From assembly GCF_000027125.1 (NCBI RefSeq), contig NC_017626.1: a stretch of 64,000 nt of DNA. One strand, given 5' to 3'. A program made the position numbers. The DNA is from Escherichia coli 042 (GTDB lineage Bacteria > Pseudomonadota > Gammaproteobacteria > Enterobacterales > Enterobacteriaceae). Below, piece after piece: positions 30,001 through 33,000 of the stretch (its first letter is position 1; every line of letters begins with the position of its first letter).

Positions 30001-33000
30001 GCTCGGCGGTGCCGCTGGAGATGAAGCAGGGGTGACTGCCATCAAATCTGCTTTTCATACAATCGGTAACGCTTGTACGGCTCTGCCCCAATGCGTTCCA
30101 GCATGTTATTCATGCCTGTATTGGTTTCGAGGATCCATGACATCTCCAGCGCATCGATCTTCCGGCGGGCAAACGGATCGCGTAAGGCTTCAATCAATAA
30201 CAGCGCAATCACCGGGCCGATGCGGCTGAACTGATACTCGTCCCGCACGCCCATCAGCGGCACTCGCGCAGTTCGCACACCGCTGACTTTCAAACGCCAC
30301 AGCAATTTTGCCCAGCCGAAGGGAAAGAGCGATCCGTTCAGATCGGCAATCGCCTCGTTGATGTTTGGCAAGCCGACAATAAACGCGCAGGGTGCAGAAT
30401 CAATCTCAGCGATGTAGATCATATCGTCCGGCACCAGATATTTAAGTTGATCGCCCATGCTCGCGAATTCATGTTCGGTAAACGGCACAAATCCCCAGTT
30501 GTGCTGCCAGCCAGAATTGAAAATCTCACGCAGGATCTGCATCTCTTCGGCAAACCGCTGGCGATTGATGCAGCGAATGGTCACCTTCTTACGCACCTGA
30601 TCCATCAGTTTTTTTAGCGCCGGAGAGAAAGTGAGACCGGTTCGCTGCATCCACCACGCCAGTAAATCAATGCCTTTGTGATAACCCAATTGTTCAATAT
30701 GCGCGGCATACCACGGTTTACCGTGCGGCATCATCGCACAGGGTGGTGTATCGAAACCTTCAATCAGTAATCCGCTTTCCTGATTGATATTCAGGCTGAA
30801 AGGACCGCTGATCTTACTTGCACCTTGTGACTTCAACCACGCTTCCGCTGCGCCAAACAACGCGGCAAAAACCTGCGGATCATCAATGGCGTCAATCATG
30901 CCGAAATGACCGGTATCTTTGCCGTAACGCTCGCGGTGCAAGGTATCGATTTGCGCGGTAATACGCCCAACTATCTGCCCCGCTTTTTTTGCCACCCACG
31001 CCTGCCAGATGATATGGTCCGTCCCCGGATTTTTCGCAGACAAATGCTCGTTGCGTTCAATGAATAAAGGGGGTATCCAGTTTGGATCGTCGGGATAAAG
31101 TGATGACGGAAAAGCGATAAATGCCTTAAGGTCATTTTTATTAATTACTTTTTCAATTTTAATCATCAGCAGATCGCATTCCATAGTTCTGTGGGTAACA
31201 AATAATTAACGGTGACAAACAGGTTGCAACAGCAACGAACGGCACCTTAATAATCAACCCAATGAATACAAACGACGAATAAATAGTATTTATTAATGAT
31301 TACGATAAGGTCAGAGACTACACAGAAGCGCCACAATGCCTTTTGTCGATTTAAGGCGACCGGACAAGGCTTCTTCTTAATACATTCATAAATTAAATAT
31401 CATTCACAATAAAAACAAAAAACTCAAACTCATTATTTAAATCAATGTTCATTTTCACACTGATGAAAATACTATCTCATTTATCTTTTATGCCTATATA
31501 ATCCACCGCATTATTGTCATTTTATTTTTGATATCCAATTTTTTCGTGGTGTATATGTCTAATAAAATCTTTACGCATTCCCTACCTATGCGCTATGCCG
31601 ATTTTCCAACGCTGGTTGATGCTTTGGACTACGCCGCTCTGAGTAGCGCCGGAATGAATTTTTATGACAGACGTTGCCAACTTGAAGATCAACTGGAATA
31701 TCAGACGTTAAAAGCGCGTGCCGAAGCTGGTGCGAAGCGGTTGTTATCGCTGAACCTGAAAAAAGGCGATCGCGTGGCACTGATTGCCGAAACAAGTAGC
31801 GAGTTCGTAGAGGCTTTTTTTGCCTGCCAGTATGCCGGCTTAGTCGCCGTCCCGTTGGCGATTCCAATGGGCGTTGGTCAGCGGGATTCCTGGAGCGCCA
31901 AATTGCAGGGTTTACTGGCAAGTTGCCAGCCCGCAGCCATTATCACTGGTGATGAGTGGTTGCCACTGGTCAATGCCGCGACGCATGACAACCCCGAATT
32001 ACATGTTTTAAGCCACGCCTGGTTTAAGGCATTACCGGAAGCCGATGTTGCGCTCCAGCGTCCAGTTCCGAACGATATCGCCTACCTCCAGTACACCTCC
32101 GGCAGCACCCGTTTTCCCCGTGGCGTCATTATCACCCATCGCGAAGTGATGGCTAATCTACGTGCTATAAGCCACGACGGCATTAAATTACGCCCTGGCG
32201 ACCGCTGCGTCTCCTGGCTGCCTTTCTACCATGATATGGGACTGGTCGGCTTTCTCCTGACCCCCGTCGCCACGCAGCTTTCAGTAGATTATTTGCGCAC
32301 TCAGGATTTTGCCATGCGTCCTCTGCAATGGCTTAAATTGATCAGTAAAAATCGCGGCACCGTTTCCGTTGCGCCGCCGTTTGGCTATGAATTGTGCCAG
32401 CGCCGCGTGAATGAAAAAGATCTCGCTGAACTGGATCTTTCCTGCTGGCGCGTCGCTGGTATTGGTGCAGAACCCATCTCCGCAGAACAACTCCATCAAT
32501 TCGCTGAATGTTTCCGTCAGGTTAACTTTGACAATAAAACTTTCATGCCGTGCTACGGACTGGCAGAAAATGCGCTGGCTGTCAGCTTCTCTGATGAAGC
32601 CTCCGGGGTTGTGGTTAACGAAGTGGATCGCGACATCCTCGAATATCAGGGTAAAGCCGTCGCGCCGGGTGCAGAGACACGCGCCGTATCGACTTTCGTC
32701 AACTGCGGCAAAGCGTTGCCGGAACATGGTATTGAAATCCGCAATGAAGCAGGTATGCCGGTCGCGGAACGTGTGGTAGGCCATATTTGCATCTCCGGTC
32801 CCAGTCTGATGAGCGGTTACTTTGGCGACCAGGTTTCGCAAGACGAGATTGCCGCGACGGGCTGGTTAGACACCGGCGACCTCGGTTATCTGCTGGACGG
32901 TTATCTGTATGTCACCGGACGCATTAAAGATCTGATTATTATTCGTGGCCGTAATATCTGGCCGCAGGATATTGAATATATAGCGGAACAGGAACCGGAA

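What the first reader, a model, noticed from the sequence alone, without database searches (positions are those of the whole stretch)
31185..31554. AT-rich divergent control region between yghO and the lipid operon
About 370 bp of roughly 70% AT sequence separates the divergently transcribed yghO and ligase genes and contains a TATAAT hexamer near 31497-31502. Its composition is typical of H-NS-silenced horizontally acquired promoters, so the locus may be silent under laboratory conditions, which could explain why no product has been noticed.
Basis: inference. Interest (0 to 1): 0.4.

Follow-up and report, generated by a model that had tools for sequence, protein, structure and literature searches.

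The report
Control region of E. coli ceramide genes
This AT-rich 370-bp gap is the shared, probably weak and conditionally used, promoter region of the sphingolipid (ceramide) genes that about three quarters of E. coli strains carry; H-NS silencing is plausible but untested, and the locus does not look recently acquired.

Summary
Window 31185-31554 is 370 bp and 68.1% AT. It lies between divergent yghO (minus strand) and a fatty acyl-AMP ligase gene (plus strand), and TATAAT sits exactly at 31497-31502.

Composition alone is not unusual: it ranks 4th most AT-rich of 19 local intergenic regions. One TATAAT is expected by chance, and no sigma-70 match beats shuffled sequence.

The informative signal is conservation. 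The ligase-proximal 92 bp (31463-31554, including TATAAT) differ at 2 positions from a sister Escherichia lineage whose flanking genes have dS of 0.25-0.5. They are identical in 2943 of 4145 E. coli genomes. The centre of the gap is variable.

The flanking genes are the published E. coli sphingolipid set: yghO (aca), aasR, epi, acpR and spt. All are under purifying selection (dN/dS 0.03-0.14). Published BL21(DE3) controls show no product from the chromosomal copies, which fits silence in the laboratory.

"Horizontally acquired" is not supported for recent time. The genes have native GC content, and the locus is syntenic and as diverged as its core flanks in the sister lineage.

H-NS binding is compositionally plausible: the region resembles the neighbouring H-NS-repressed sslE promoter. 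No occupancy or mutant data could be found.

Verdict: an ordinary, uncharacterised, promoter region lacking a -35 element. Interest is modest.

The parts
31185..31554 (.). Whole yghO|aasR divergent intergenic region: 370 bp, 68.1% AT. It extends to 31167-31554 if YghO starts at Met7.
31463..31554 (+). Conserved promoter-proximal block, about -47 to +45 relative to the inferred start site. It holds the candidate core promoter and the AU-rich 5' leader of the aasR operon.
   Evidence: 2 differences in 92 bp against sister lineage L010, where flanking dS is 0.25-0.51. Identical in 2943 of 4145 E. coli genomes. TATAAT and all but one position from there to the start codon are invariant in 7 divergent alleles.
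31497..31502 (+). TATAAT, the candidate -10 hexamer of the aasR-epi-acpR-spt operon. The best -35 candidate is ATCTCA (31474-31479, 3 of 6 matches). There is no TG extension. The inferred start site is near 31509, after a GC-rich discriminator CCACCGC.
   Evidence: Conserved in all alleles and in L010. The start site is inferred, not measured.
31546..31557 (+). Weak Shine-Dalgarno sequence GTGGTG (-2.8 kcal/mol against the anti-SD) and the aasR start codon ATG 31555-31557.
   Evidence: The predicted leader fold pairs this segment with codons 11-14 (-13 kcal/mol, z = -1.9).
31290..31381 (.). Variable central segment, including a GC-neutral island (31300-31375, 48-54% AT) and a hairpin-like repeat at 31338-31370 that other alleles do not keep.
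   Evidence: 482 genomes are only 80-90% identical here.
31185..31236 (-). yghO-proximal segment, moderately conserved. Weak promoter-like pair TTGCAA (31229-31224) / AATTAT (31207-31202). ArcA-like 13/15 match at 31196-31210. Palindrome GTTGCAAC at 31223-31230, which is absent from L010.
   Evidence: Leads only.
31510..31538 (-). Minus-strand promoter-like match (TTGGAT-17-AATAAT) inside the conserved block. It would give yghO a leader of about 320 nt. It is not above chance.
30042..31184 (-). yghO, called 'aca' in the literature: the N-acyltransferase / bacterial ceramide synthase homologue of Caulobacter CC_1154. The conserved Met is at 31166.
   Evidence: dN/dS 0.077. No Pfam or NCBIfam hit.
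31555..33276 (+). aasR: fatty acyl-AMP ligase, the specialised acyl-ACP synthetase (ECD_02851 in BL21).
   Evidence: NF006624, 878 bits against a cut-off of 600; PMC9386255
33273..34187 (+). epi: NAD-dependent epimerase/dehydratase-family reductase (ECD_02852). Its start overlaps the aasR stop by 4 bp.
34219..34467 (+). acpR: specialised acyl carrier protein (ECD_02853).
34467..35639 (+). spt: serine palmitoyltransferase (ECD_02854). Its start overlaps the acpR stop.
   Evidence: NF047599 equivalog, 599 bits against a cut-off of 500
35642..35676 (.). Hairpin with a 16-pair stem between convergent spt and the lptG-like gene. Likely the end of the operon.

Best explanation
The gap is the shared regulatory region of the E. 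coli ceramide (sphingolipid) genes. yghO, a bacterial ceramide-synthase-type N-acyltransferase, is read leftwards. The aasR-epi-acpR-spt operon is read rightwards and ends at the hairpin at 35642-35676.

The operon is most likely driven by one core promoter inside the strongly conserved 92-bp block. That promoter has a perfect -10 (TATAAT, 31497-31502) but no usable -35 and no TG extension. Its inferred start site is near 31509. It is followed by a 45-nt AU-rich leader and a weak ribosome-binding site.

Such a promoter is intrinsically weak, and it needs an activator, an alternative sigma factor or relief of repression. The roughly 200 bp at 70-84% AT around it is the kind of DNA that H-NS/StpA coat, so nucleoid-protein repression probably adds to the low basal activity.

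The outcome is a locus that is off, or nearly off, in ordinary culture and switched on by a signal not yet known.

Shown here: anatomy, conservation, gene identity, purifying selection, and published absence of product in BL21. Inferred: the start site, the weakness of the promoter, the H-NS contribution and the existence of an inducing signal.
For: - **Anatomy:** coordinates, orientation and operon structure.
- **Gene identity:** NCBIfam matches above cut-off for aasR and spt. Biochemical work on the BL21 orthologues ECD_02850-02854 (PMC9386255).
- **Conserved arrangement:** divergent yghO<->aasR with a long gap 10-27 GC points below its flanks in Hafnia, Pluralibacter, Serratia, Citrobacter, Erwinia, Pseudomonas, Azomonas and others.
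- **Footprint:** the 92-bp block has 2 differences from L010, while synonymous sites of flanking genes differ by 0.25-0.51 (P about 1e-10 at the rate of the rest of the gap). It is identical in 71% of carrier genomes, against 30% for the central 92 bp.
- **Weak signals:** poor -35 and sigma-70 scores not above shuffles. Weak SD for aasR and for yghO.
- **Genes are functional:** dN/dS 0.03-0.14 for all five.
- **Silence in culture:** BL21(DE3) with empty vector, SPT alone, or AcpR+AasR alone makes no 3-oxo-sphinganine, and its gap differs from the window at 4 sites.
- **H-NS plausibility:** composition equals that of the sslE promoter 11 kb away, which H-NS represses.
Against: - No transcription start, expression or occupancy data for this region were found. 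The BL21 tiling-array supplements are not held, and the ETEC H-NS/CRP ChIP paper has no entry for it.
- TATAAT is expected by chance about once in such sequence.
- Conservation of the block could reflect the leader RNA, an operator or the minus-strand promoter-like site rather than the -10.
- The H-NS motif is not enriched (1 site with 2 or fewer mismatches against 1.1 in shuffles).
- The AT-rich tract is short and flanked by genes of 50-57% GC. From my own knowledge of K-12 ChIP studies, such short tracts are less often strongly silencing.
- The BL21 evidence is thin-layer chromatography of lipids and enzyme assays at 30 C, not RNA measurements.
Confidence: 0.55

Rival explanations
1. One reading: the locus is foreign DNA, and H-NS xenogeneic silencing of this AT-rich promoter is the main reason it is off. 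Deleting hns would be enough to turn it on.
For: - 68% AT overall, with about 200 bp at 70-84% AT.
- Same composition as the H-NS-repressed sslE promoter in the same window.
- The only motifs shared by orthologous gaps across genera are AT-rich low-complexity words, not a specific operator.
- Patchy distribution of the cluster among Enterobacterales at about 75% protein identity.
- No product in BL21.
Against: - The genes themselves have native GC, 50-52%.
- The locus is syntenic and as diverged as the core glc genes in a sister Escherichia lineage, and it is present in about 76% of E. coli. Any transfer was therefore ancient.
- The H-NS motif is not enriched.
- The promoter lacks a -35 and may stay off even without H-NS.
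- No occupancy data exist.
Confidence: 0.25
2. An ordinary, constitutively weak pair of promoters whose AT-richness has no special regulatory meaning. The pathway runs at a low level, or lacks a substrate, and its product has simply not been looked for in E. coli.
For: - Three of 19 nearby intergenic regions are more AT-rich.
- Promoter-like and H-NS-like matches are at chance level.
- Weak SD sequences would keep protein levels low.
Against: - Over-expressed SPT alone gave no product in BL21, so chromosomal aasR and acpR do not supply detectable acyl-AcpR. Conversely, chromosomal spt did not use supplied acyl-AcpR.
- Very strong conservation of 92 bp, including 34 bp upstream of the -10 and the whole leader, suggests regulated rather than incidental signals.
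Confidence: 0.15
3. The gap hides a further element, such as a small RNA, a leader peptide or a riboswitch-like leader, that accounts for the conserved block.
For: - The 45-nt leader is almost invariant.
- A predicted fold sequesters the SD and AUG (-13 kcal/mol, z = -1.9).
- A three-codon ORF (ATG CCT ATA TAA) overlaps the -10 in E. coli, and a similar one is present in Pseudocitrobacter (read from the alignment).
Against: - No Rfam match even at E <= 10.
- No covariation is possible because the block is invariant.
- The mini-ORF is lost in allele P276M.
- The small ORFs in the gap lie in the variable part.
- The central hairpin is not conserved.
Confidence: 0.05

Closest known systems
sslE (yghJ) promoter of the E. 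coli T2SS-beta cluster, about 11 kb away in this window (AT tract 20038-20611)
   Same: An AT-rich gap of 484 bp at 30% GC in front of an accessory operon that K-12 has lost in part. The composition is nearly identical.
   Different: For sslE, H-NS repression at ambient temperature and Fis activation are shown experimentally (PMC5012682; listed as H-NS-sensitive in PMC2094087). For the yghO|aasR gap nothing has been measured.
Classic H-NS-silenced cryptic operons such as bgl and proU (own knowledge, and PMC2094087)
   Same: AT-rich promoter region and no detectable product in laboratory culture.
   Different: Those loci have high-affinity nucleation motifs plus extended AT-rich flanks inside the genes. 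Here the motif is not enriched and the coding regions have 50-57% GC.
Caulobacter crescentus ceramide gene cluster (CC_1154, CC_1162-1165)
   Same: The same five structural genes, and they are clustered only in Caulobacter and E. coli (PMC9386255).
   Different: In Caulobacter the pathway is active and the lipids are found in the membrane. The E. coli set is arranged as yghO divergent from a four-gene operon, and it appears inactive in BL21 culture. No shared control sequence was looked for or found.
Activator-dependent promoters that lack a -35 element, for example PhoB- or sigma-S-type promoters (own knowledge)
   Same: A good -10, no -35, and conserved sequence over the -35 region.
   Different: The best Pho-box match is 13/18, which is at chance, and it ends 5 bp rather than about 10 bp before the -10. 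No activator has been identified.

Membership tests
Sigma-70 promoter | -10 hexamer close to TATAAT | tested here: met
   Perfect TATAAT at 31497-31502, conserved in all alleles and in L010. About 0.56 are expected by chance on this strand.
Sigma-70 promoter | -35 hexamer close to TTGACA at 16-18 bp, or a TG extension | tested here: not met
   The best -35 is ATCTCA (3 of 6 matches) and there is no TG. The total of 9.1 bits is below the shuffles' maximum of 12.5 +/- 1.4.
Sigma-70 promoter | Mapped transcription start site | not testable with these tools
   No start-site data were found. The BL21 supplements are not held.
Divergent (shared) control region | Two adjacent genes on opposite strands reading away from the gap | tested here: met
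   yghO on the minus strand and aasR on the plus strand. The arrangement is kept in more than 20 genera.
H-NS-silenced xenogeneic locus | AT content well above the genome average over the promoter | tested here: met
   68.1% AT against 48.7% for the window, with 207 bp of 50-bp windows at or above 65% AT.
H-NS-silenced xenogeneic locus | AT-rich coding regions or a foreign compositional signature | tested here: not met
   yghO has 50.1% GC and the operon 52.3% GC. No compositional shift appears across the cluster.
H-NS-silenced xenogeneic locus | Evidence of horizontal acquisition | tested here: inconclusive
   - Against: same synteny and about 91% identity, like the core flanks, in a sister Escherichia lineage; present in about 76% of E. 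coli.
- For an ancient transfer: patchy occurrence among Enterobacterales, and no other Escherichia among the 80 best loci.
H-NS-silenced xenogeneic locus | High-affinity H-NS motif (tCGATAAATT) enriched | tested here: not met
   One site with 2 or fewer mismatches, against 1.1 +/- 1.1 in shuffles. The density is no higher than in other local gaps.
H-NS-silenced xenogeneic locus | H-NS occupancy, and derepression in an hns mutant | not testable with these tools
   K-12 and O157 Sakai lack the region. The ETEC ChIP paper's supplements have no entry for it.
Known structured RNA (Rfam) | Match to a covariance model | tested here: not met
   Only chance-level hits to eukaryotic snoRNA and miRNA models (E 1.8-8.5), far below their gathering scores.
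Bacterial sphingolipid (ceramide) gene cluster, Rhodobacteria type | spt preceded by acpR, with aasR, a reductase and an N-acyltransferase | tested here: met
   NCBIfam SPT equivalog and FAAL subfamily above their cut-offs. Gene order. BL21 orthologues characterised in PMC9386255.

The most novel reading that the evidence does not exclude
This gap is the on/off switch of a cryptic ceramide pathway that most E. coli carry and keep under purifying selection. Relief of nucleoid-protein repression, or an unidentified activator acting at the promoter that lacks a -35, would then make E. coli produce sphingolipids in some natural niche. E. coli is generally regarded as free of sphingolipids.
Probability: 0.35. 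Interest if true: 0.6.

Novelty: new member of a known kind. Interest (0 to 1): 0.3.

Why it matters
E. coli is the reference organism for membrane lipids and is generally taken to make no sphingolipids. Yet about 76% of complete genomes carry five intact ceramide-synthesis genes under purifying selection, and their products work when over-expressed. The laboratory reference strain K-12 has lost them.

The 370-bp gap is where the decision to express them is made. Knowing that the ligase-side 92 bp are the constrained part gives a concrete target for reporter fusions, promoter replacement and regulator screens. So does knowing that the promoter lacks a -35 and sits in H-NS-type DNA. Such experiments could show when E. 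coli makes ceramides.

As a sequence feature, the region is an ordinary AT-rich bacterial promoter region.

Tried and rejected
- **Rfam**, permissive threshold, over 30800-31900: nothing credible.
- **Small ORFs in the gap** (21-32 aa): they lie in the variable part and are not conserved.
- **Central hairpin 31338-31370:** altered or deleted in other alleles with no compensating changes.
- **Sigma-70 scans** (the tool's scan and my own PWM): no site above shuffles.
- **H-NS motif:** not enriched.
- **24 regulator and sigma-factor consensus sequences:**
  - Only an ArcA-like match (13/15, 31196-31210) and a FadR-like match (12/16, 31218-31234) reached a nominal p of 0.01-0.02. That is not significant after 24 tests.
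  - The FadR-like palindrome is missing in L010.
  - The best Pho-box match, 13/18, is at chance.
- **Shared motif with the yghS|yghT gap** (possible co-regulation with the convergent lptFG-like operon): none above shuffles.
- **Word search across 17 orthologous gaps from other genera:** only AT-rich low-complexity words.
- **Alignments of both gene-proximal regions across genera:** only the ribosome-binding and start regions are conserved.
- **Repeated or mobile element:** rejected; there is one place per genome.
- **Literature:**
  - No paper on native regulation of the E. coli cluster.
  - BL21 transcriptome supplements are not held.
  - The ETEC H-NS/CRP ChIP supplements have no entry for it.
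  - O157 Sakai lacks the locus, so O157 data cannot help.
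Full report
**Where the window is.** It is E. coli chromosome. The gene order is kps capsule genes, the gsp-beta secretion cluster with sslE, glcABGFEDC, yghO, a four-gene lipid operon, an lptFG-like/yghQRS operon, then yghT, pitB, gss and hyb.

- Positions 31185-31554 are 370 bp at 68.1% AT, and TATAAT lies exactly at 31497-31502.
- yghO (30042-31184) is on the minus strand, and the fatty acyl-AMP ligase ORF on the plus strand.
- PGAP places the ligase start at the equivalent of 31555 in some genomes and 31588 in others. The N-terminus MS(N/E)..SLPMRYADFP is conserved in other genera. That includes Pseudomonas sequences in which the inner Met is replaced, so 31555 is the better start.
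- For YghO, the Met conserved in other genera is codon 7 (ATG 31166), so the gap may really be 388 bp.

**Whether this is more than chance.**
- Composition alone is unremarkable. The gap is the 4th most AT-rich of 19 local intergenic regions. Five tracts in the 64 kb are at least as AT-rich.
- About 0.56 TATAAT hexamers are expected on this strand from composition.
- The hexamer has no usable -35 (ATCTCA) and no TG extension. The best sigma-70 scores on either strand (9-10 bits) are below the typical maximum of composition-matched shuffles (12.5 +/- 1.4). The tool's own scan found 2 sites against 2.9 expected.
- The Lang et al. H-NS motif (tCGATAAATT, checked in PMC2094087) occurs once with 2 or fewer mismatches, against 1.1 expected.
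- The AT-richness is uneven: 31375-31575 is 70-84% AT, 31300-31375 only 48-54%.

**Conservation separates signal from noise.**
- Seven divergent E. coli alleles are nearly invariant from TATAAT to beyond the start codon (one substitution, at 31529) but differ by substitutions and indels in the centre.
- Locus L010 is labelled E. coli but is about 91% identical across 13.7 kb, including the core glcDEF genes. It is therefore a sister Escherichia lineage with the same synteny.
- Against L010 the flanking genes show dS of 0.25-0.51, and the gap as a whole is only 75% identical. The last 92 bp (31463-31554) nevertheless differ at just 2 positions. The probability is about 1e-10 at the rate seen in the rest of the gap, and 0.009 even at the overall 9% divergence.
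- Across complete E. coli genomes that carry it, this 92-bp block is identical in 2943 of 4145. The central 92 bp are identical in 1258 of 4127 and only 80-90% identical in 482.
- So a block running from about -47 to +45 around the inferred start site (near 31509) is under strong constraint. This is good support for a real core promoter plus leader on the ligase side. It does not prove that TATAAT is the -10.

**What the region controls.**
- The flanking genes are the E. coli sphingolipid set studied by Padilla-Gomez et al. (PMC9386255): yghO = aca (ECD_02850, homologue of Caulobacter CC_1154), aasR (ECD_02851), epi (ECD_02852), acpR (ECD_02853) and spt (ECD_02854).
- NCBIfam agrees for aasR (fatty acyl-AMP ligase subfamily, 878 bits against a cut-off of 600) and for spt (SPT equivalog, 599 bits against 500).
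- Overlapping stops and starts, and a 16-pair hairpin at 35642-35676, delimit a four-gene operon.
- All five genes are under purifying selection, with dN/dS of 0.03-0.14, so they must be used somewhere.
- The divergent yghO<->aasR arrangement recurs in more than 20 other genera. The gap there is 270-950 bp long and 10-27 GC points below its flanks. The AT-rich gap is therefore a property of this gene pair, not a mark of recent import into E. coli.

**Is the locus silent?** The only evidence found is indirect but points that way.
- In BL21(DE3) pLysS, cells with empty vectors, with SPT alone, or with AcpR plus AasR alone had normal lipid profiles. 3-oxo-sphinganine appeared only when all three proteins were supplied.
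- Extracts with empty vector had no SPT activity.
- SPT of E. coli can use acyl-AcpR from Caulobacter, so the chromosomal spt, aasR and acpR copies were all effectively inactive in complex medium at 30 C.
- The E. coli B gap differs from the window at only four sites.
- Both first genes also have weak ribosome-binding sites. Other genera have AAGG upstream of yghO where E. coli has GCGA.

**Is it H-NS?**
- For: the composition matches that of the sslE promoter 11 kb away (30% GC, 484 bp). H-NS strongly represses that promoter at ambient temperature (PMC5012682). The only words shared by orthologous gaps across genera are AT-rich and low in complexity.
- Against, or neutral: there is no motif enrichment, the tract is short, and the coding DNA on both sides has 50-57% GC.
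- No occupancy or mutant data could be found.
  - K-12 carries an IS5-associated deletion that leaves only 45 bp of the query.
  - O157:H7 Sakai has SpLE3 in place of everything from pheV to pitB.
  - Both strains therefore lack the region.
- I put H-NS/StpA occupancy at roughly 45%, and H-NS as the sole brake at roughly 25%.

**Is it horizontally acquired?** Not recently.
- GC content is native.
- The locus is present in about 76% of complete genomes.
- It is as diverged as the core flanks in the sister lineage.
- An ancient transfer remains possible. Occurrence among Enterobacterales is patchy, at about 75% protein identity.

**Other readings were checked and set aside.**
- There is no Rfam family.
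- No small ORF or central hairpin is conserved.
- No regulator consensus is significant after multiple testing. An ArcA-like 13/15 match at 31196-31210 is a lead only.
- No motif is shared with the yghS|yghT gap.
- A predicted leader fold that buries the SD and AUG is only marginally better than shuffles (z = -1.9), and it cannot be tested by covariation because the block is invariant.

**Verdict.** This is a real but ordinary divergent promoter region, so far uncharacterised. Its functional core is the ligase-proximal 92 bp. The horizontal-acquisition premise is weak, and H-NS remains an untested, moderately likely contributor.

Noticed in passing
window 31555 vs 31588: RefSeq/PGAP annotates two different start codons for the fatty acyl-AMP ligase (aasR) in different E. 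coli genomes, giving 573-574 or 562 aa. Conservation across genera favours the upstream ATG at 31555, and the downstream ATG has no SD (+1.9 kcal/mol).
   Followed up: yes
window 31164-31184 (minus strand): The Met of YghO conserved in other genera is codon 7 of the annotated ORF. Other genera have an AAGG Shine-Dalgarno 8-10 nt upstream of it, but E. coli has GCGA there plus an extra in-frame ATG. Translation initiation of yghO therefore looks weak or shifted in E. coli.
   Followed up: partly
L010 (NZ_JAATUR010000001.1), whole locus, against window 25539-39262: A genome labelled E. coli (strain SCPM-O-B-8794) is only about 91% identical across core glc genes and the lipid cluster alike. It is probably a cryptic Escherichia clade, and it carries the same syntenic cluster.
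   Followed up: partly
window 35674-42151 (minus strand): Convergent with spt lies a long run of same-strand genes: lptG-like, lptF-like, a YtfJ-family gene, a hypothetical gene, a yghQ-type flippase-like gene, yghR and yghS. K-12 has lost part of it through the same deletion. It may export or modify the lipid made by the spt operon. No motif is shared between its upstream gap and the yghO|aasR gap.
   Followed up: partly
window 35642-35676: A perfect GC-rich hairpin with a 16-pair stem in the 34-bp gap between convergent spt and the lptG-like gene. It is likely a bidirectional terminator.
   Followed up: no
window 1-6000: Group-2 capsule (kps) genes, namely ABC transporter and cytidylyltransferase genes, sit next to gspK/L. 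They contain two long AT-rich tracts (1-1415 and 2792-3513, down to 26% GC). Only 684 genomes share 80% or more of this stretch.
   Followed up: no
L092 (NZ_AP022177.1) 243-2699: In strain WP7-S17-ESBL-04, yghO is split by an IS1203 insertion. K-12 has IS5 in yghO, and O157 Sakai has lost the whole pheV-pitB interval to SpLE3. The locus has therefore been inactivated repeatedly in separate lineages.
   Followed up: partly
window 31196-31210 (minus strand): GTTAATTATTTGTTA matches the ArcA consensus at 13 of 15 positions, right next to the yghO start (11/15 in L010). The nominal p is about 0.01, but 24 motifs were tried.
   Followed up: partly
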